Shown here one piece after another: positions 3,756-10,168 of a stretch of DNA of 23,224 bases. The notes below the pieces were generated by a model that was not told where the DNA came from, did not search any database, and worked only from the letters and a program-made list of their open reading frames with translations. The stretch comes from a virus (lineage: Duplodnaviria; Heunggongvirae; Uroviricota; Caudoviricetes). The DNA lies in the IMG/VR virus record IMGVR_UViG_2537561562_000009; one strand, written 5' to 3'. Made by a program: the position numbers and the translations under genes. The first letter of the stretch is position 1. Each line of letters begins with the position of its first letter.

Positions 3756-3831
3756 GGCCCTTTAGCTCAGTGGTGAGAGCGAGCGACTCATAATCGCCAG
3801 GTCGCTGGTTCAAATCCAGCAAGGGCCACCA
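3756..3831 (+). tRNA. tRNA with anticodon CAT (Met or lysidine-modified Ile2, ileZ-like)
   Basis: 76 nt; acceptor stem GGCCCTT / AAGGGCC, anticodon loop CTCATAA, T-loop GGTTCAAATCC, encoded 3' CCA. Confidence 0.85.
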
Positions 3832-3931: not shown

Positions 3932-4008
3932 GCGTTGTTAGCTCAGCCGGACAGAGCAATTGCCTTCTAAGCAATCGGTCACTGGTTCGAATCCAGTACA
4001 GCGCGCCA
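3932..4008 (+). tRNA. tRNA-Arg (anticodon TCT)
   Basis: 77 nt; acceptor stem GCGTTGT / ACAGCGC with one G-U pair, D-arm AGCTCAGCCGGACAGAGC, anticodon loop CTTCTAA, T-loop GGTTCGAATCC, discriminator G plus CCA. Confidence 0.85.
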
Positions 4009-4472: not shown

Positions 4473-4863
4473 ATACATATCTGGATTATCACCGGTTACG
4501 GTAAAAAGTGATTGCTTACTGTTTTTGTGAATGGCATTGCAGCAGCCGGATAATGTCAGTGCTGGCTGACGGTGTGCTGGTGGCGGGGGTGGGGGTTGCT
4601 GCTTTCCCGTTGCTGAAAAAGAAAACGCCAGACTGTTAGCCGGGTATCAGTTAGCGGGAGAAATTTTTAAATACTTCACAATTCAGGCGGTTGACTGTTG
4701 TCTGGTTTGCGGGGAGTTTGTTAAAAGAAACTGGCATGGTGAATCCCCCTGTGCGGAGGGGCAATCAGCGAGTAGGTATATGGGATAATCGCGGATTCAG
4801 GTGCTGGTACTGAATTCACCGGGAGGCACCCGGCACCATGCAATGGCACATAGCGCCACTCTC

Positions 4864-4899
4864 CAGCCCCTCTCCGGAGGGGCTGTTTATATTGATTTT
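4864..4899 (+). terminator. Strong intrinsic terminator hairpin within cargo island
   Basis: Perfect 9-bp stem CAGCCCCTC / GAGGGGCTG (4864-4872 / 4877-4885), 4-nt loop TCCG, followed by TTTATATTGATTTT. Confidence 0.55.
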
Positions 4900-5500: not shown

Positions 5501-7369
5501 ATGGTGAAAAGAACCATGGCATTTAAACACTATGATGTTGTCAGGGCGGCGTCGCCGTCAGATCTTGCGGAAAAGCTGACACATAAACTGAAAGAGGGCT
5601 GGCAGCCGTTTGGTAGTCCGGTGGCCATAACCCCTTATACCCTGATGCAGGCGATTGCAGCAGAAGGTGATGTGGTCGTCAGTGGTGCAACTGAGCCGGA
5701 GTGGTACTACGTCATCGTACTGGCCGGGCAGTCCAATGCCATGGCTTACGGTGAAGGGCTTCCGCTTCCGGATTCATACGATGCGCCCCATCCGCGCATT
5801 AAGCAACTGGCCCGTCGTAACACAGTGACTCCCGGTGGTGAAGTATGCGTATTTAACGACATCATTCCTGCTGACCATTGTCTGCATGATGTTCAGGATA
5901 TGAGTACGATTAACCATCCCCGGGCTGACCTGAGCAAAGGGCAGTACGGCTGTGTCGGCCAGGGCTTACATATTGCCAAAAAACTGCTTCCGTATATCCC
6001 TAATAATGCGGGGATCCTGCTGGTACCATGCTGTCGTGGTGGTTCGGCATTCACCCAGGGCACGGAGGGGACATTCAGCGAGTCCACGGGGGCCAGTCAG
6101 GATTCGGCTCGCTGGGGAGTGGGTAAGCCGTTATATCAGGATCTGCTTTTCCGCACGAAGGCAGCATTGCAGAAAAACCCGAAAAACGTTTTGCTGGCGA
6201 TATGCTGGATGCAGGGGGAATTCGATATGACGAATGCCAGTTACGCCCAGCAGCCAGCAGCATTTCTTGCAATGGTACAGCAGTTCCGTGCTGACCTTGC
6301 CGGGCTGGCAGCGCAGTGTCACGGTGGAAGTCCGGCATCAGTCCCCTGGATTTGTGGCGACACGACATACGCGTGGAAACAAGAACACGGTACGCAATAT
6401 GAAGTGGTATATGGTGCATATAAAGGTAAAGAATCCCAGCAGATTTATTTTGTTCCCTTTATGACCGATGGTAGCGGAGTTAATACACCGACAAACAACC
6501 CGTCAGAAGATCCTGATATTGCCGGGTCTGGTTATTACGGTTCGGCATCCCGAACGAACAAAAACTGGGTATCATCAAATCGCCCGACGCATTTCAGCTC
6601 ATGGGCGCGTCGTGGCATTATTCCCGATCGTATGGCAACTGCTATTCTGAACGTAGCCGGGCGCACCTCAGCCTTCATCAGTGGTAAGGCACCGGAAATC
6701 AAACCCTCGCCCGGCGGCGACACGCCATCGGGTCCGTCTGCAGATACGTCCGTTCGCACAATCTCCCTGCTGCCGACAGCCGGAGAGGCTGCTGCGCAGG
6801 GCTGGACCATTAAGGACGGCGGAATTCAGTTGTCGGGTGGTGTATTTAAGATCGCCAAGCAGAGCAATAAAGCCTGGTCCCTGACGCGCCCGGTGGATGA
6901 CGCAGTCTCCCTGCTGACACGGGGTGGCAGACTGAGCTGTAAGTTTCGACTGTCAGGCGCACTGACCAACAATCAGTTCGGTCTGGGAATTTATCTGTAT
7001 ACCGATGTAGCGTTACCTGACGTCGTGGCGATGACCGGGACTGGTAACCCGTTCCTGATGTCGTTCTTCACCCAGACCACAGACGGCAAACTGAATCTGA
7101 TGCATCACAAGAAAGCAGGAAACACAAAGTTGGGCGAGTTCGGGAATTACAGTAACGACTGGCAGACGCTGGAGCTGGTGTTCACCGCCGGCAGTGCCAC
7201 GGTTACTCCGAAACTGAATGGAGTGGCTGGCCCGGCATTCCAGGCCATAAAAGACAGTCTGGCAGTGGGACTAAATGCACTGACGCTGACGGATATTACC
7301 AAAAATGCAACGTATGGCGTTGAGATAGAAAGTCTGGTGCTGGAGATAAATGCACCGGCATCATCATAA
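5501..7369 (+). CDS. nanS-p: Prophage sialate O-acetylesterase-like protein (NanS-p-like; DUF1737 N-domain plus SGNH hydrolase plus C-terminal domain)
   Basis: 622 aa; SGNH block-I-like motif YYVIVLAGQSNAMAYGEG about 20 residues after the N-terminal domain; position between the tRNA/cargo region and the holin matches NanS-p of Stx and related lambdoid prophages. True start may be the second ATG at 5516 (MAFKHYD...). Confidence 0.7.
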   Translation: MVKRTMAFKHYDVVRAASPSDLAEKLTHKLKEGWQPFGSPVAITPYTLMQAIAAEGDVVVSGATEPEWYYVIVLAGQSNAMAYGEGLPLPDSYDAPHPRIKQLARRNTVTPGGEVCVFNDIIPADHCLHDVQDMSTINHPRADLSKGQYGCVGQGLHIAKKLLPYIPNNAGILLVPCCRGGSAFTQGTEGTFSESTGASQDSARWGVGKPLYQDLLFRTKAALQKNPKNVLLAICWMQGEFDMTNASYAQQPAAFLAMVQQFRADLAGLAAQCHGGSPASVPWICGDTTYAWKQEHGTQYEVVYGAYKGKESQQIYFVPFMTDGSGVNTPTNNPSEDPDIAGSGYYGSASRTNKNWVSSNRPTHFSSWARRGIIPDRMATAILNVAGRTSAFISGKAPEIKPSPGGDTPSGPSADTSVRTISLLPTAGEAAAQGWTIKDGGIQLSGGVFKIAKQSNKAWSLTRPVDDAVSLLTRGGRLSCKFRLSGALTNNQFGLGIYLYTDVALPDVVAMTGTGNPFLMSFFTQTTDGKLNLMHHKKAGNTKLGEFGNYSNDWQTLELVFTAGSATVTPKLNGVAGPAFQAIKDSLAVGLNALTLTDITKNATYGVEIESLVLEINAPASS

Positions 7370-7519
7370 AAAGTGAGCCAGTCAAATGGAAGGTATCGTT
7401 AAACTCACCGGTAGTGTCAGTGGGTCGTCTGAGATGCCTGCATGAGTTATCAGAGCCATCAGTACTTAACTGGTGGCTTTTTTTATTGTTGTCAGCTTCC
7501 GGATAACGGGAGACGGGGT

Positions 7520-7735
7520 ATGTACCAGATGGAAAAAATCACAACAGGTGTGTCATACACCACGTCAGCGGTGGGAACGGGCTACTGGTTCCTGCAGTTG
7601 CTGGACAGGGTTTCCCCGTCTCAGTGGGCGGCAATAGGCGTGCTGGGGAGTCTGCTGTTTGGGCTGCTGACATATCTGACTAACCTGTATTTCAAAATCA
7701 GAGAGGACCGTCGTAAGGCTGCACGGGGAGAGTAA
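7520..7735 (+). CDS. S: Class II holin / pinholin (phage 21 S-like), dual-start MYQM
   Basis: 71 aa from ATG 7520 ([13 protein letters not shown]...), two hydrophobic segments, charged C-terminus [13 protein letters not shown]; closely resembles the S21 pinholin as remembered. The track ORF starts further upstream at 7442 without such support. Confidence 0.85.
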
Positions 7736-7739
7736 TTCA

Positions 7740-8084
7740 ATGACTCAAAACTATGAACTGATTGTGAAAGGGATCCGCAATTTTGAGAATAAAGTTACGG
7801 TAACTTTAGCGTTACGGGACAAAAAACGCTTTGACGGTGAAATTTTTGACCTGGACATCTCGCTGGACCGTGTTGAAGGTGCCGCGCTGGAGTTTTATGA
7901 GGCAGCAGCCAGAAGGAGCATCAGACAGGTCTTCCTGGATGTTGCTGCCGGGTTATGTGAAGGGGATGAGCAGTCGCCGGAAAAGCGCCCCGTAATTTTA
8001 GAGGCGCAGGATGTGTTGATAACCTACAGAGGAAAACTACCGGGAATAATTACTGGTTCTCTGAAGAGTCCGCCGAAATGGTAA
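7740..8084 (+). CDS. Hypothetical protein between holin and endolysin (possibly YdfR/DUF1327-like)
   Basis: 114 aa; ATG 5 nt after the holin stop with GGGGAGAG upstream. A small gene at this position exists in some E. coli lambdoid prophage lysis cassettes (from memory, not verified). Confidence 0.5.
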   Translation: MTQNYELIVKGIRNFENKVTVTLALRDKKRFDGEIFDLDISLDRVEGAALEFYEAAARRSIRQVFLDVAAGLCEGDEQSPEKRPVILEAQDVLITYRGKLPGIITGSLKSPPKW

Positions 8085-8322
8085 TTTTACCAGCATATTT
8101 TTCATCCAGTAATACAGCAAGCCGCCTGAAAGAGTCTTGTTGTTCCTGAGACCATTTGGGATTGCATGATTCAAACTGGATTGATGCCAGCGTTGATTGC
8201 ATCTGTTCCCTTGGAATTGAGAATGCCAGATATGAGAAGGCGACGGTAAGGGTATTCACGTCTTCCCGAAGCCTGGAAATGCTGTCGAGCAACTCCTGTA
8301 GAGAAATGGTGTTATTGTCCAT
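8050..8322 (-). CDS. Hypothetical protein, minus strand, embedded in lysis cassette (90 aa)
   Basis: Strong Shine-Dalgarno on the minus strand (GAGGA, 6-nt spacer, ATG at 8322); 3' end overlaps the 3' end of the 7740-8084 gene by 35 bp (convergent); possible promoter TTGCCT...TACAAT upstream on the minus strand. Confidence 0.45.
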   Translation of the reverse strand: MDNNTISLQELLDSISRLREDVNTLTVAFSYLAFSIPREQMQSTLASIQFESCNPKWSQEQQDSFRRLAVLLDEKYAGKITISADSSENQ

Positions 8323-8427: not shown

Positions 8428-8961
8428 ATGAACGCAAAAATCAGATACGGCCTGTCGGCTGCCGTTCTGGCGCTGATTGCCGCTGGTGCGCCTGCGCCTG
8501 ACATTCTCGACCAGTTTCTGGATGAAAAGGAAGGCAATCACACCACGGCATACCGTGATGGTGCAGGTATCTGGACCATCTGCCGTGGTGCCATCATGGT
8601 GGATGGCAAACCTGTCGTTCCGGGCATGAAGTTGTCGAAGGAAAAATGCGACCAGGTTAACGCCATTGAGCGTGATAAAGCGCTGGCGTGGGTGGAGAAA
8701 AACATCAGAGTGCCACTGACCGAACCCCAGAAAGCGGGGATCGCGTCATTCTGTCCGTACAACATTGGTCCCGGTAAGTGTTTCCCGTCGACGTTTTATA
8801 AACGAATTAATGCAGGTGATCGCAGGGGAGCGTGTGAGGCGATTCGCTGGTGGATTAAGGACGGTGGCAGAGACTGCCGTATTCGTTCAAACAACTGCTA
8901 CGGTCAGGTATCCCGTCGTGACCAGGAGAGCGCGCTGGCGTGCTGGGGTATCGACAGATAA
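8428..8961 (+). CDS. R: SAR endolysin (T4-lysozyme-fold muramidase with N-terminal signal-anchor-release domain)
   Basis: 177 aa; weakly hydrophobic Gly/Ala-rich N-terminus YGLSAAVLALIAAGAPAP; catalytic E-x8-D-x5-T signature in EGNHTTAYRDGAGIWTICRG; pairs with the upstream pinholin. Confidence 0.85.
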   Translation: MNAKIRYGLSAAVLALIAAGAPAPDILDQFLDEKEGNHTTAYRDGAGIWTICRGAIMVDGKPVVPGMKLSKEKCDQVNAIERDKALAWVEKNIRVPLTEPQKAGIASFCPYNIGPGKCFPSTFYKRINAGDRRGACEAIRWWIKDGGRDCRIRSNNCYGQVSRRDQESALACWGIDR

Positions 8962-9047
8962 GCAGAATATTTTGCTGAAAAATGCGGTTTGCTTACACGG
9001 ACGGATAACACGAAATCCTGCGAACTGACAAAAACTAAGTGAATAAA

Positions 9048-9090
9048 AGTAAAAACCCCGTTTGTTGGCTGCAAGCGGGGTTTTGTGTTT
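9048..9090. terminator. Intrinsic terminator, potentially bidirectional
   Basis: Stem CCCCGTTTG / CAAGCGGGG (9056-9064 / 9072-9080, one G-U pair), 7-nt loop, T-run TTTTGTGTTT downstream and A-run upstream. Confidence 0.6.
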
Positions 9091-9120
9091 CCTGACTCTG
9101 GAAAAGTCAAAGGAGAAAGT

Positions 9121-9258
9121 GTGTTTGATTTTAGCAAACTGATTCGGGAGATTCGAGTGATGGCTGAAAAATTATCCACCTGGAAGTTCATTCTTATCTG
9201 GCTGGTGTTTGTGATTATGGCCTCCGGTTATTTCATCGGTCAGATACGCTGGTGGTGA
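9121..9258 (+). CDS. Small single-pass membrane protein (45 aa from GTG 9121, or 32 aa from ATG 9160)
   Basis: Not in the supplied track (under 60 aa). AGGAGA at 9111-9116 precedes GTG 9121, and GGGAG at 9146-9150 precedes ATG 9160. Translation MFDFSKLIREIRVMAEKLSTWKFILIWLVFVIMASGYFIGQIRWW has one hydrophobic helix. Stop TGA at 9256-9258 is 1 nt before the Rz start. Confidence 0.45.
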   Translation: MFDFSKLIREIRVMAEKLSTWKFILIWLVFVIMASGYFIGQIRWW

Positions 9259-9259
9259 A

Positions 9260-9727
9260 ATGAACCGCGTACTGTGCGTGGTCATCATTGCCCTGCTGGT
9301 GGCCTGTGGTGCGCTTAGTCTGGGGCTGAATCATTACCGTGATAACGCCATAACCTACAAAGAGCAGCGCGATAAAAAAGTCAGTGAGCTGGAGCAGGCA
9401 AATGCAACCATTACTGATATGCAGCAGCGCCAGCGTGATGTTGCTGCACTTGATGCCAGATACTCGAGGGAATTAGCCGATGCGAGAGCTGAAAATGAAA
9501 CTCTGCGTGCTGATGTTGCCGCTGGTCGTAAGCGCCTGCGGATCAACGCCACCTGCCCCGGTACCGTGCGTGAAGCCCCCACCACCTCCGGCGTGGATAA
9601 TGCAACCGGCCCCCGACTGGCAGACACCGCTGAACGGGATTATTTCACTCTCAGAGAGCGGTTGATGCTGATGCAGAAGCAGCTGGAAGTGGCGCAGGAA
9701 TATATCCGCACTCAGTGCCTGAAATAA
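9260..9727 (+). CDS. Rz: Rz i-spanin
   Basis: 155 aa; N-terminal transmembrane segment VLCVVIIALLVACGALSL, coiled-coil-like periplasmic domain; follows the endolysin. Confidence 0.85.
   Translation: MNRVLCVVIIALLVACGALSLGLNHYRDNAITYKEQRDKKVSELEQANATITDMQQRQRDVAALDARYSRELADARAENETLRADVAAGRKRLRINATCPGTVREAPTTSGVDNATGPRLADTAERDYFTLRERLMLMQKQLEVAQEYIRTQCLK
9495..9665 (+). CDS. Rz1: Rz1 o-spanin lipoprotein, embedded in Rz in the +1 frame
   Basis: 56 aa from ATG 9495; lipobox VSAC in MKLCVLMLPLVVSACGS, proline-rich mature part; lies entirely within Rz. Confidence 0.8.
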   Translation: MKLCVLMLPLVVSACGSTPPAPVPCVKPPPPPAWIMQPAPDWQTPLNGIISLSESG

Positions 9728-9980
9728 GTTTTGCTGATGCGCGGTATTGTCGCCGTATCCCCGCATTAACAGAGACCGCAGCCCGACCGGGAGACTCCTC
9801 TGCGCGAGTGTGCGGGGATAATCAAAAACGATACACACCGGGGTTTACCGCGTTAACGGAGCGCGGCGTTGTCCCCTCATAGTCGCCTGTCCGGTGCGAT
9901 GGTGGAAGAAATCGGACTACATTGAAAATGATAACCATTATCATTTTTGCGGGTCCTTTCCGGCGATCCGGGCCGTTACG

Positions 9981-9992
9981 GGGCGGCGACCT
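9981..9992 (+). other. cosN, 12-nt cohesive-end sequence GGGCGGCGACCT (lambda-type)
   Basis: Sequence GTTACG-GGGCGGCGACCTCGCGGTTTTTCACTATTTATGAAAATTTTTC closely matches the remembered lambda left-end sequence; located about 180 bp upstream of Nu1. Confidence 0.8.
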
Positions 9993-10168
9993 CGCGGTTT
10001 TTCACTATTTATGAAAATTTTTCAGGGAAAATCGTGTCGGTACTTCTCGAATATAACTTTTTGTTTTTTTTAATATTGCATCCGTAAAGGTCCGACATGA
10101 AAGTGTCCGAAAATGCCTTTTTCTGGCGTTTTCATGTCGGGCCTTGTATTTGATAATGGGTTGTTTTC
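9993..10168 (+). promoter_or_regulatory. cosB-like terminase small-subunit binding region
   Basis: Lies between cosN and the Nu1 start; contains an 11-bp inverted repeat CCGACATGAAA / TTTCATGTCGG (10092-10102 / 10130-10140) and GTCCGA direct repeats. Confidence 0.5.

What the first reader, a model, noticed from the sequence alone, without database searches (positions are those of the whole stretch)
9048..9258. Small single-pass membrane protein gene between SAR endolysin and Rz, behind a bidirectional terminator
A 32-45 codon ORF with two possible starts, each with a Shine-Dalgarno (GTG 9121 or ATG 9160), encodes one hydrophobic helix (WKFILIWLVFVIMASGYFIGQI) and ends 1 nt before the Rz start. 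In lambda-type and 21-type cassettes R is followed directly by Rz/Rz1. An extra small membrane protein here could be a lysis regulator (antiholin-like or spanin modulator) or a small membrane toxin. It is absent from the supplied ORF track because it is under 60 aa.
Basis: seen in the sequence. Interest (0 to 1): 0.55.

Follow-up and report, generated by a model that had tools for sequence, protein, structure and literature searches.

The report
Antisense-gated small membrane protein cassette
The small ORF between the endolysin and Rz genes is a real, conserved 45-residue membrane protein gene that travels between phages as a 210-base cassette, and the cassette seems to carry its own undescribed antisense RNA switch, like a toxin-antitoxin pair.

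Summary
The ORF runs from GTG 9121 (or ATG 9160) to 9258, follows a hairpin at 9052-9084 and ends 1 nt before Rz. It is a real gene: RefSeq WP_000459345.1, PHROG 6632, function unknown. Codons 18-42 have dN 0.07-0.7 with dS from 0.6 to saturated.

It is not specific to the lysis cassette. The whole unit (hairpin, spacer hairpin, Shine-Dalgarno, non-ATG start in nearly all copies, ORF) recurs in several settings:
- between endolysin and spanin genes of three unrelated cassette types;
- between baseplate genes gpV and gpW;
- among tail genes of Pseudomonas phages;
- between T7 gp14-like and SLT-domain genes in an Azoarcus genome bin.

Codons 2-17 have suppressed synonymous change. On the minus strand they read TCGCAA, 17 nt, TGnTAnnnT, which is an extended -10 promoter. 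Its critical bases are invariant in 23 diverse copies while the encoded residues vary. This promoter points at the upstream hairpin.

I therefore predict a ~75-nt cis-antisense RNA (about 9122 to 9048) covering the start codon and Shine-Dalgarno. That makes the cassette a type I toxin-antitoxin-like unit riding in phage late operons.

No transcript or toxicity data exist. No Rfam, Pfam, NCBIfam or PADLOC family covers it, and six literature searches found no description. The protein's function is inferred, not shown.

The parts
8428..8961 (+). Context: SAR-type endolysin R, the upstream neighbour. Not part of the cassette.
   Evidence: PF00959 at E 3e-24, with N-terminus MNAKIRYGLSAAVLALIAAGAP.
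9043..9055 (-). A-rich tract on the + strand. It reads TTTTTACTTTTAT on the minus strand and is the predicted U-tail and 3' end of the antisense RNA. It is also the left boundary of the cassette.
   Evidence: Sequence. Minus-strand tails after the stem average 6.7 T in 10 nt across 23 diverse copies. Homology to ant-carrying phages ends at 9056.
9052..9084 (.). GC-rich stem-loop with a T-run on both strands, i.e. a bidirectional intrinsic terminator. It is co-inherited with the ORF.
   Evidence: Terminator scan. Present in all 56 unique cassette sequences. Compensatory changes: taking both hairpins together, 10 of 15 pairs change on both sides, 93.5% of cells are paired, and 0 of 500 shuffles reach this. 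Fold energies are -12 to -24 kcal/mol on the + strand and -11 to -26 on the minus strand.
9088..9116 (.). Spacer hairpin: TGACT 9093-9097 pairs with AGTCA 9105-9109, extended by TTTCC 9088-9092 pairing with GGAGA 9112-9116. On the mRNA it pairs with the Shine-Dalgarno sequence. On the antisense RNA it forms the 5' stem-loop.
   Evidence: Folds. All 4 core pairs covary, for example CCTTG/CAAGG, CGTTA/TAACG and GGCAG/CTGCC.
9110..9116 (+). Shine-Dalgarno sequence AAGGAGA for the GTG start.
   Evidence: Sequence. G(G)GAGAA or GAGGAG is conserved at this place in the relatives.
9121..9258 (+). Small ORF of 45 aa: MFDFSKLIREIRVMAEKLSTWKFILIWLVFVIMASGYFIGQIRWW. It has an N-terminal amphipathic helix, a hinge and a C-terminal transmembrane helix. 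The predicted topology is N-in, tail-anchored.
   Evidence: Purifying selection. AlphaFold2 gives helices 4-17 and 20-43 at pLDDT 83. Hydropathy and flank charges. The start codon is GTG or TTG in all 34 unique ORFs from the main collection; two distant members use ATG.
9146..9162 (+). Internal GGGAG plus ATG 9160 (Met14), a possible second start giving a 32-aa product.
   Evidence: Sequence. Met14 is invariant in 34 of 34 close and medium relatives but is I, F or L in some distant ones. Use of this start is not established.
9128..9136 (-). Predicted extended -10 element of the antisense promoter. It reads TGCTAAAAT on the minus strand and overlaps codons 3-6.
   Evidence: This is one of only 2 matches to TGNTAWAAT in the 23-kb window. 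T, G, T, A and T of TGnTAnnnT are invariant in 23 diverse copies, although the encoded residues vary (DFS, NFS, DIS, NFI, NSS, EFI). Synonymous variation is zero here: GAT 32/32, TTT 28/28, AGC 33/33.
9151..9156 (-). Predicted -35 element, TCGAAT here and TCGCAA in most relatives. It lies exactly 17 nt from the -10 and overlaps codons 11-12.
   Evidence: Arg12 is always CGA (33/33) and Leu11 always TTG (21/21), while the same amino acids elsewhere in the ORF use 4-6 codons.
9166..9177 (-). A+T-rich stretch, GGATAATTTTTC on the minus strand at about -56 to -45. It is a possible UP-like element overlapping codons 16-19.
   Evidence: Reduced synonymous variation at codons 16-18. This is inference only.
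9048..9122 (-). Predicted cis-antisense small RNA of about 75 nt. It has a 5' end opposite the start codon, a stretch complementary to the Shine-Dalgarno sequence, a 5' stem-loop, the terminator hairpin and a U-tail.
   Evidence: The promoter and terminator geometry is conserved. The fold is -21.9 kcal/mol with z = -4.1. No expression data exist, and no Rfam family matches.
9260..9727 (+). Context: the i-spanin gene Rz, with Rz1 embedded at 9480-9665. It is the downstream neighbour and starts 1 nt after the small ORF's stop.
   Evidence: PF03245 at E 8e-49 and PF06085 at E 8e-21.

Best explanation
Window 9043-9258 is a self-contained, horizontally mobile cassette with two genes on opposite strands.

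Plus strand: a 45-aa tail-anchored inner-membrane protein. It has a cytoplasmic amphipathic helix at residues 4-17 and a transmembrane helix at 20-43. It has no promoter of its own, so it can only be transcribed by read-through from the phage late operon in which it sits.

Minus strand: a sigma-70 promoter embedded in codons 3-12 of that ORF (TCGAAT, 17 nt, TGCTAAAAT). It is predicted to fire a ~75-nt RNA that starts opposite the GTG codon. The RNA is perfectly complementary to the start codon, the Shine-Dalgarno sequence and the spacer hairpin, and it ends at the conserved hairpin 9084-9052.

Inferred logic in a lysogen: four layers keep the protein off. These are the + strand terminator, the GTG/TTG start, the leader hairpin that occludes the Shine-Dalgarno sequence, and the constitutive antisense RNA (blocking translation and/or triggering cleavage of the duplex).

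Inferred logic after induction: late transcription made terminator-resistant by the Q antiterminator floods the locus and outruns the antisense RNA, and the protein inserts into the inner membrane. Its most likely action is that of a type I-toxin-like or holin-like membrane perturbant that contributes to host shut-down or lysis timing.

What is shown: the gene is real and under purifying selection; the cassette is mobile; both hairpins covary; codons 2-17 carry a nucleotide-level constraint that spells a promoter on the other strand.

What is inferred: that the promoter fires, that the RNA represses, and that the protein is membrane-toxic and acts late.
For: 1. Coding. The frame, length and stop are conserved from E. 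coli to Pseudomonas and Azoarcus. There are 72 clusters at 50% identity, all 31-95 aa. Codons 18-42 have dN 0.07-0.7 against dS from 0.6 to saturated.

2. Cassette. DNA alignments show homology starting at the A-tract before the hairpin and ending at the stop codon, in unrelated flanks. The contexts are tabulated. In every case examined the cassette is co-oriented with the operon or promoter upstream of it.

3. Antisense promoter.
- Synonymous change is suppressed in codons 2-17: dS is 0-0.5 there, against at least 0.57 or saturated downstream, in 12 of 13 pairs; in the 13th (window vs the Azoarcus copy) dS was saturated in both segments.
- Codon use is fixed exactly where the minus strand reads -35 and extended -10.
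- TGnTAnnnT is invariant with a fixed 17-nt spacer in 23 diverse copies, including two distant members whose residues there differ.
- RNAalifold finds no conserved sense-strand structure that could explain this.

4. Terminator for that promoter. The hairpin and its minus-strand T-run are conserved. In the Azoarcus copy the + strand tail has only 4 T in 10 nt against 7 on the minus strand, and the minus-strand hairpin is far more stable, -22 against -12 kcal/mol.

5. Signs that expression must be kept low. The start is GTG or TTG in all 34 unique ORFs of the main collection. The Shine-Dalgarno sequence is paired in the leader hairpin in nearly all copies.

6. Association and precedent. One distant member sits among ParE/RelB, YafQ/RelB and HicAB toxin-antitoxin genes. 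hokW-sokW, a type I pair in Stx2 phage Sp5, assists lysis and phage release after induction (PMC8621323).
Against: - There is no transcript evidence for the antisense RNA. The -35 element is weak (3 of 6 matches), and the generic promoter scan did not call this site.
- The hairpins are strand-symmetric. G-U asymmetry slightly favours the + strand (15 of 21 copies), so the hairpin does not by itself indicate a minus-strand RNA.
- Classical type I toxins have their own promoter and a stable mRNA. None is found inside the cassette, so post-segregational killing is unlikely.
- The N-terminal cytoplasmic helix is better conserved than the transmembrane helix. That suggests a specific cytoplasmic partner rather than generic membrane damage.
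- There is no homology to any known toxin, holin or defence family.
- The cassette is enriched at the endolysin-spanin junction in three cassette types, so a lysis-specific role remains possible.
Confidence: 0.55

Rival explanations
1. It is an ordinary accessory lysis protein with no RNA control, acting as an antiholin, a modulator of the pinholin, a releasin-like helper of the SAR endolysin, or a partner of the spanin. On this view the hairpin is a plain intercistronic terminator, and the conserved bases after the start codon only serve translation initiation.
For: - It sits between endolysin and spanin genes in E. coli, in Salmonella and in a cassette with a GH19 endolysin.
- Its stop lies 1 nt before the Rz ATG in two of these.
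- Related phages carry further small single-pass membrane ORFs in the same slot.
- Mu gp25 'releasin' is a precedent for a membrane-tethered cytoplasmic helper of SAR endolysins (PMC9239132).
- Two in-frame starts recall holin/antiholin pairs.
Against: - The identical cassette occurs in baseplate, tail and internal-virion-protein operons, far from lysis genes.
- It accompanies both SAR and soluble endolysins.
- It has no DUF2730 or holin Pfam match, and its topology is the opposite of gp25's.
- Translation-initiation constraints do not explain why exactly TGnTAnnnT and a -35 element at 17 nt are fixed while the residues change.
Confidence: 0.15
2. The main product is the minus-strand small RNA, a phage-borne trans-acting regulator of host or phage mRNAs. 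The small ORF is then a secondary passenger, or exists mainly to host the promoter.
For: - The promoter-plus-terminator unit is the most conserved part at nucleotide level.
- Prophages of pathogenic E. coli are rich in small RNAs at insertion sites for accessory genes (morons) (PMC4104026; bioRxiv 10.64898/2026.05.13.724894).
Against: - The region downstream of the promoter overlap (codons 18-45) is under clear purifying selection as protein, with saturated synonymous sites. The protein is therefore functional in its own right.
- The single-stranded 5' part of the RNA varies with the Shine-Dalgarno and spacer sequence of its own cassette. That fits a cis target better than a shared trans target.
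Confidence: 0.1
3. It is a classical moron expressed in the lysogen, encoding a small inner-membrane protein for superinfection exclusion or host modification, comparable to HK97 gp15.
For: It is inserted between genes that are adjacent in related phages. It lies in tail-operon moron regions in Pseudomonas phages. It is a small inner-membrane protein.
Against: No sense promoter lies within the cassette. A terminator sits upstream rather than downstream. The start is non-ATG, the Shine-Dalgarno sequence is occluded, and an antisense promoter points at the ribosome-binding site. All of these argue for silence in the lysogen.
Confidence: 0.08
4. It is a regulatory upstream ORF or leader peptide whose translation sets expression of the downstream gene (Rz here) by translational coupling.
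For: The TGA-A-ATG junction with Rz is the same in Salmonella. The codons for the C-terminal RWW plus stop (TGG TGG TGA) resemble a Shine-Dalgarno sequence.
Against: The distance to the next gene varies: 1, 7-19, 39 and about 350 nt. In some copies the next gene is on the opposite strand or absent. The peptide sequence is under strong purifying selection and forms a transmembrane helix.
Confidence: 0.05
5. It is not a gene: the region is a non-coding Rz leader and the ORF is there by chance.
For: Many RefSeq and phage records leave it unannotated.
Against: The frame is conserved across genera, dN is far below dS, and the ORF has full-length PHROG and protein-cluster support.
Confidence: 0.02

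Closest known systems
hok/sok-type type I toxin-antitoxin loci, in particular hokW-sokW of Stx2 prophage Sp5 (PMC8621323)
   Same: A small inner-membrane protein carried by a lambdoid Stx-type phage. A short cis-antisense RNA targets the translation-initiation region. In the paper, the toxin is produced after prophage induction and aids lysis and phage release.
   Different: There is no sequence relationship and no Pfam Hok match. Hok has an N-terminal transmembrane helix and a periplasmic tail, whereas this protein is tail-anchored. hok has its own promoter, a stable processed mRNA and the mok coupling frame; this cassette has no sense promoter. Toxicity and the antisense RNA are unproven here.
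SymE/SymR of E. coli, with IS10 RNA-OUT/RNA-IN and phage P22 sar RNA/ant as further examples of the same architecture (my own knowledge, not tested here)
   Same: The antisense promoter lies inside the 5' end of the target ORF or gene. The roughly 70-nt antisense RNA covers the Shine-Dalgarno sequence and start codon and ends at a terminator just upstream.
   Different: The targets differ: SymE is an RNA-cleaving protein, and the others are a transposase and an antirepressor. None of them is a portable cassette found in many late-operon positions.
Phage morons (Juhala et al. 2000 definition, as cited in PMC4104026); HK97 gp15 as an example of a small inner-membrane moron product (my own knowledge)
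   Same: Extra DNA sits between genes that are adjacent in related phages. It is small, self-contained and moves between unrelated phages.
   Different: A classical moron has a promoter, a gene and a downstream terminator, and is expressed from the prophage. Here the terminator is upstream, there is no sense promoter, and the only promoter points backwards.
Holin/antiholin dual-start genes (lambda S107/S105, S21 71/68; my own knowledge) and Mu gp25 releasin (PMC9239132)
   Same: Small membrane proteins encoded in or near lysis cassettes and expressed late. This ORF has two in-frame starts. gp25 is a membrane-tethered cytoplasmic protein with almost no periplasmic part.
   Different: The two starts are 13 codons apart, and Met14 is not conserved in distant members. 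There is no holin or DUF2730 homology. The topology is the opposite of gp25's. The cassette is often outside lysis cassettes.
PHROG 6632 / RefSeq WP_000459345.1
   Same: A full-length match at E 1e-29 and an identical protein.
   Different: These entries carry no function, no RNA partner and no note of the upstream hairpin. Many gene calls extend the ORF wrongly through the hairpin (65-76 aa forms).

Membership tests
Type I toxin-antitoxin system | Small (under 60 aa) hydrophobic protein with a transmembrane helix | tested here: met
   45 aa. The Kyte-Doolittle peak is at residues 24-42 and the AlphaFold2 helix spans 20-43.
Type I toxin-antitoxin system | A small antisense RNA that base-pairs with the toxin mRNA and blocks translation or triggers decay | tested here: inconclusive
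   A minus-strand extended -10 promoter, a 17-nt spacer and a -35 element are conserved and face a conserved terminator. The predicted ~75-nt RNA covers the Shine-Dalgarno sequence and start codon. No expression data are available.
Type I toxin-antitoxin system | The protein is toxic when over-produced | not testable with these tools
   This needs inducible expression with growth and membrane-potential assays.
Type I toxin-antitoxin system | The toxin gene has its own promoter, giving a stable mRNA in uninduced cells | tested here: not met
   No + strand promoter was found between 8962 and 9120. Cassette homology begins at the hairpin, with only about 35 nt before the Shine-Dalgarno sequence.
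Type I toxin-antitoxin system | Homology to a known toxin family (Hok, Ldr, Fst, Ibs, TisB, ShoB, Zor, DinQ, TxpA and others) | tested here: not met
   No Pfam, NCBIfam or PADLOC match. The family was not found in text searches (terms: prophage, phage, CP-933, EDL933) of the Fozo et al. 2010 survey.
Holin / antiholin | Membership of a holin family, or constant placement with the endolysin as the lysis-timing gene | tested here: not met
   No holin Pfam or PHROG hit; the window's own holin is at 7523-7735. The cassette is often in baseplate or tail operons.
Holin / antiholin | Dual-start motif giving two products that differ at the N-terminus | tested here: inconclusive
   GTG 9121 and ATG 9160 each have a Shine-Dalgarno-like sequence. 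Met14 is invariant in 34 of 34 closer relatives but is lost in several distant ones.
Releasin (Mu gp25, DUF2730) | [quoted passage not shown] | tested here: not met
   No DUF2730 hit. The predicted topology is N-in with a net-positive 22-residue cytoplasmic helix. The cassette is found with a soluble GH19 endolysin and away from endolysins.
Moron | Extra gene between two genes that are adjacent in related phages | tested here: met
   R and Rz abut in the K-12 Qin prophage. The slot holds ant instead in VT1- and VT2-Sakai. The cassette lies between gpV and gpW in SEN34 and Rac-SA53.
Moron | Own promoter upstream and terminator downstream, allowing expression from the prophage | tested here: not met
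   The terminator is upstream, there is no sense promoter, and the only conserved promoter is antisense.
PHROG 6632 (unknown function) | Significant full-length profile match | tested here: met
   E 1.2e-29, residues 1-45 against profile positions 1-45 of 45.
Any Rfam RNA family (for the predicted antisense RNA) | Covariance-model match | tested here: not met
   Nothing at gathering score in the window or in 8 related loci. The best sub-threshold hit was the rimP leader, 29.9 bits against a cut-off of 47.

The most novel reading that the evidence does not exclude
A previously unrecognised, widespread family of type I toxin-antitoxin-like cassettes that have no sense promoter and ride in phage late operons. 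The cassette consists of a tail-anchored 45-aa membrane protein, a ~75-nt cis-antisense RNA whose promoter is written into the first 12 codons of the protein gene, and a bidirectional terminator that serves both strands. It acts as a safety lock that is opened only by terminator-resistant late transcription. It is present in Stx1, Stx2a and Stx2c phages and in about 16% of complete E. coli genomes. It is also found in Salmonella, Yersinia, Enterobacter, Klebsiella, Pseudomonas aeruginosa phages and a betaproteobacterial genome bin. It could influence lysis timing, and hence Shiga toxin release.
Probability: 0.4. Interest if true: 0.75.

Novelty: new member of a known kind. Interest (0 to 1): 0.6.

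Why it matters
If the prediction holds, a gene pair that annotation pipelines mostly miss or mis-call would be a new family of antisense-controlled small membrane proteins. It is present in hundreds of E. coli genomes and in Shiga-toxin phages.

It would show a compact design principle: the promoter of the antisense repressor is encoded in synonymous positions of its own target, and one hairpin terminates both strands. That design lets a potentially harmful late gene move safely between unrelated phages.

For Stx phages it offers a testable new input into lysis timing and toxin release. For small-protein and small-RNA discovery it gives a concrete, cheap experiment: one Northern blot and one synonymous promoter knockout.

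It also corrects annotation. The right start is the GTG or TTG after the hairpin, not the 65-76 aa extensions.

Tried and rejected
1. The only minus-strand promoter that the generic scan reported inside the ORF (CTGACC, 18 nt, CATAAT at 9243-9214) is not conserved in SEN34, Salmonella or Pseudomonas copies (alignment). I rejected it.
2. G-U against A-C asymmetry, used to assign the hairpins to one strand, was inconclusive. The terminator is more stable on the + strand in 15 of 21 copies and on the minus strand in 6 of 21.
3. A conserved sense-strand RNA structure over codons 1-20, as an alternative cause of the synonymous constraint: RNAalifold predicts no pairs.
4. Rfam at gathering and E-value thresholds, for the window and 8 related loci: nothing relevant.
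5. Pfam, NCBIfam, PADLOC and PDB sequence searches: no family. I ran no fold search because the model is two helices.
6. The known EHEC prophage small RNAs AsxR and AgvB lie 3' of stx or the moron site, and PasA/PasC lie between the esterase and holin genes, not in the R-Rz slot.
7. Literature searches for the accession, for peptide strings, and for endolysin/Rz-slot phrases gave no paper on this ORF.
8. I looked for the cassette in VT1-Sakai and VT2-Sakai, hoping to use published Sakai transcriptomes. Both carry ant in the slot instead.
9. The first script that estimated sRNA ends from folds counted A-U pairs as part of the stem and gave unusable tails. I redid this from alignment columns.
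10. The minus-strand 95-aa ORF 8904-9191, annotated in CP-1639, runs through the terminator hairpin. I did not check its conservation and did not pursue it.
Full report
**1. What is in the window.**
The window is the late region of a lambdoid prophage of the H-19B/Stx-phage type. In order it carries:
- a SASA-family esterase gene, 5501-7369;
- an S21-type holin gene, 7523-7735;
- a DUF1327/YdfR gene, 7740-8084;
- a minus-strand 90-aa ORF, 8050-8322;
- the SAR endolysin gene R, 8428-8961;
- the finding itself;
- Rz at 9260-9727 with Rz1 embedded at 9480-9665;
- the terminase genes, from 10169.

- GTG 9121 is preceded by AAGGAG at 9110-9115.
- The in-frame ATG 9160 is preceded by GGGAG at 9146-9150.
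- The stop is at 9256-9258, one base before the Rz ATG.
- A 14-pair stem-loop lies at 9052-9084 with T-runs on both sides.

The same 361-nt region is 100% identical in many E. coli chromosomes, and 871 of 5426 complete genomes hold most of it. It is 96-99% identical in H-19B, CP-1639, TL-2011c and many Stx1a, Stx2a and Stx2c phages.

Some records annotate the 45-aa ORF as 'hypothetical protein' (WP_000459345.1) or 'putative bacteriophage protein'. Many leave it out, and a few extend it to 65-76 aa through the hairpin. It matches PHROG 6632 (unknown function) end to end at E 1e-29. It matches nothing in Pfam, NCBIfam, PADLOC or the PDB. Every source name is 'hypothetical' or 'phage protein'.

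**2. It is a real protein-coding gene.**
Homologues of 42-55 aa occur in Escherichia, Salmonella, Enterobacter, Citrobacter, Klebsiella, Yersinia, Brenneria, Symbiopectobacterium and Providencia. They also occur in Pseudomonas aeruginosa prophages and phages, in an Azoarcus genome bin and in metagenomes. An exhaustive profile search finds 72 clusters at 50% identity, all of them mini-proteins of 31-95 aa.

The conserved pattern is x-[DNE]-[FIL]-S-K-[LI]-I-R-E-[LIV]-R-x-M-x-E-K-L-[SP]-x-W-[KR]-F. A hydrophobic helix follows, and many members end in RWW.

Between diverged pairs, codons 18-42 have dN 0.07-0.7, while dS is at least 0.57 and usually saturated. AlphaFold2 with the family alignment gives helix 4-17, a hinge at 18-19 and helix 20-43, at mean pLDDT 83. 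Hydropathy places the transmembrane segment at residues 24-42. The 22-residue N-terminal flank is net +1 to +3, and only 2-7 residues follow the helix. This predicts an N-in, tail-anchored inner-membrane protein with a short cytoplasmic amphipathic helix.

Residues 3-13 are conserved across the whole family, so the upstream GTG/TTG start defines the protein. Met14 is invariant in 34 of 34 closer sequences but is I, F or L in several distant ones. The 32-aa product is therefore possible but not a family feature.

**3. It is a mobile cassette, not a fixture of the lysis cassette.**
Alignment of the DNA from unrelated contexts shows where homology starts and stops. It begins at the A-tract just before the hairpin. 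It then runs through the hairpin, a ~30-nt spacer, the Shine-Dalgarno sequence and the ORF, and it ends at the stop codon.

Contexts found:
- R-Rz in E. coli. There are two allelic forms, and one lies about 350 nt upstream of Rz with three more small membrane ORFs in between.
- A different holin and SAR lysozyme, with Rz, in Salmonella.
- A soluble GH19 endolysin and an Rz-like protein.
- The baseplate genes gpV and gpW in SEN34, Rac-SA53 and a Yersinia prophage.
- A region of small ORFs among the tail genes of Pseudomonas phages.
- T7 gp14-like and SLT-domain genes in the Azoarcus bin, and after a giant LPD38 protein in Brenneria and Symbiopectobacterium.
- Among ParE/RelB, YafQ/RelB and HicAB genes, downstream of a promoter-plus-terminator pair and upstream of terminase.

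In VT1- and VT2-Sakai the R-Rz slot holds ant instead. In the K-12 Qin prophage R and Rz abut. In every case examined the cassette is co-oriented with the operon or promoter upstream of it. This distribution argues against a dedicated spanin or holin partner. The enrichment at endolysin-spanin junctions keeps a lysis-related role open.

**4. The key result: an antisense promoter written into the ORF.**
Across 34 unique ORF sequences the start codon is always GTG or TTG. Two distant members use ATG.

Synonymous sites vary freely from codon 18 onward. For example, Phe is TTT or TTC in roughly equal numbers at four positions, Leu uses up to six codons, and Ser36 uses four TCN codons. They are frozen at the 5' end:
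- Asp3: GAT 32/32;
- Phe4: TTT 28/28;
- Ser5: AGC 33/33;
- Leu11: TTG 21/21;
- Arg12: CGA 33/33.

In 12 of 13 diverged pairs, dS over codons 2-17 is 0-0.5 against at least 0.57 or saturated downstream; in the pair with the Azoarcus copy dS was saturated in both segments.

Read on the minus strand, these frozen blocks spell TCGCAA (TCGAAT in the window), exactly 17 nt, then TG-n-TAAAAT. This is an extended -10 sigma-70 promoter. In 23 diverse copies the positions T, G, T, A and T of TGnTAnnnT are invariant. The less critical positions vary (TAAAAT, TAATAT, TAGAAT, TAAACT), and so do the encoded residues (DFS, NFS, DIS, NFI, NSS, EFI). TGNTAWAAT occurs only twice in the 23-kb window. RNAalifold finds no conserved sense-strand structure over this stretch.

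Transcription from this promoter would start opposite the start codon, at about 9121 +/- 2. It would copy the complement of the start codon, the Shine-Dalgarno sequence and the spacer, and it would meet the conserved hairpin and its minus-strand T-run. The result is an RNA of about 75-90 nt with a 5' stem-loop and a terminator stem-loop. The fold energy is -21.9 kcal/mol, z = -4.1.

Both hairpins are supported by compensatory changes: 10 of 15 pairs change on both sides, 93.5% of cells are paired, 0 of 500 shuffles reach this, and slid controls collapse. T-runs are kept on both strands, 6.7 and 6.8 T in 10 nt. In the Azoarcus, L111 and L217 copies the + strand tail is weaker than or equal to the minus-strand tail (4-5 against 5-7 T). 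On the mRNA the spacer hairpin extends to pair UUUCU with GGAGA, which occludes the Shine-Dalgarno sequence in nearly all copies.

**5. How it most likely works.**
Shown:
- a conserved small membrane protein gene;
- a co-inherited bidirectional terminator and spacer hairpin;
- no sense promoter inside the cassette;
- nucleotide constraints in codons 2-17 that match a promoter facing that terminator.

Inferred:
- The promoter is active and makes a cis-antisense RNA that blocks initiation at the GTG/TTG start, and perhaps triggers duplex cleavage.
- The terminator, the weak start codon and the occluded Shine-Dalgarno sequence add further layers, so the ORF stays silent in the lysogen.
- Late transcription overrides the lock. 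In lambdoid phages this is because Q-modified RNA polymerase ignores terminators; that is established knowledge for lambda Q and was not tested here.
- So many layers of repression are typical of toxic small membrane proteins, so the product probably perturbs the inner membrane late in infection.

The hokW-sokW pair of Stx2 phage Sp5 is an experimental precedent for such a role. HokW is made after induction, localises to the inner membrane, advances growth arrest and doubles phage release (PMC8621323).

A caveat on the toxin idea: the cytoplasmic helix is better conserved than the membrane helix. That may mean the protein has a specific partner instead.

**6. Comparison with what is known.**
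- By architecture it resembles type I toxin-antitoxin loci and other RBS-covering cis-antisense systems (SymR/SymE, IS10 RNA-OUT, P22 sar/ant; these come from my own knowledge).
- It is not a member of any known toxin family, because there is no homology. It also lacks the toxin promoter that classical type I loci have.
- By distribution it is moron-like, but its signals are inverted: the terminator is upstream and the only promoter is antisense.
- It is not a holin, an antiholin family member or a DUF2730 releasin.
- It is not one of the published EHEC prophage small RNAs.
- No Rfam family covers the predicted RNA.
- Six literature searches found nothing on this ORF or RNA. The library is incomplete, so prior description cannot be excluded.

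**7. Verdict.**
The 'small membrane toxin' reading fits best, and the 'spanin or holin modulator tied to R-Rz' reading does not.
- The new element is the conserved antisense promoter-terminator unit, and the recognition that the region 9043-9258 is a portable cassette.
- Confidence that the ORF is a gene is about 0.95. Confidence that an antisense RNA is made is about 0.7. Confidence that the protein is membrane-toxic and acts late is about 0.5.
- Novelty: a new member of a known kind, namely a candidate new family of type I-like, antisense-controlled small membrane proteins.

Noticed in passing
window 4705-4894; 3756-3828; 3932-4005: A strong STnc100 small-RNA match (132 bits) and two tRNA genes lie upstream of the esterase gene. 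The Storz-lab preprint links STnc100 to the PasD small RNAs of Stx-type prophages.
   Followed up: no
window 7370-7522 (hairpin 7452-7480): A terminator-like stem-loop lies in the gap between the SASA esterase gene and the holin gene. This is the slot where the PasA/PasC small RNAs are reported (bioRxiv 10.64898/2026.05.13.724894). The listed 97-aa ORF 7442-7735 runs through it, so the real holin start is probably at 7523 (MYQMEKIT...).
   Followed up: no
window 8050-8322 (minus strand): A 90-aa ORF (PHROG 2411, unknown function) is wedged convergently between ydfR and R and overlaps the 3' end of ydfR by 35 nt. In a near-identical RefSeq locus, ydfR is flagged as a truncated pseudogene.
   Followed up: partly
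window 8084-8092 (minus strand): This is the only other match to the extended -10 pattern TGNTAWAAT in the window (TGGTAAAAT). It points antisense into ydfR.
   Followed up: no
L013 2032-2163, 2166-2282, 2294-2380; L005 3862-4008: Related phages carry other small single-pass membrane ORFs in the same R-Rz slot; the last 783R2 ORF and the Sakai ORF are unannotated. vB_EcoS-783R2 has three more after its copy of this cassette, and the last ends ...IRWW* 1 nt before the Rz ATG, like the window ORF. VT2-Sakai has one after ant. The slot appears to collect small membrane protein genes.
   Followed up: partly
L217-L219, 1400-4500: A distant family member (MNSSKLIKELRMM...RWW) sits among ParE/RelB-like, YafQ/RelB, HicAB and BrnA toxin-antitoxin genes. 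It lies downstream of a strong promoter-like site plus a terminator and upstream of terminase.
   Followed up: partly
proteins P0001, P0004, P0010, P0011; L003 2600-2818: Gene callers frequently extend the ORF upstream through the terminator hairpin, giving 65-76 aa products. Frameshifted copies also exist (P0025, P0027, P0031, P0035), so some copies are decaying.
   Followed up: partly
window 9728-10168: The 440-nt gap between Rz and the small terminase subunit gene contains several terminator-like hairpins (9979-9994, 10122-10141) and long T-runs. It presumably holds the cos region, which I did not analyse.
   Followed up: no
L012 3560-3643 (minus strand): Rac-SA53 has an sRNA-Xcc1 match (78 bits) next to its ant gene, about 1 kb from its copy of the cassette.
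   Followed up: no
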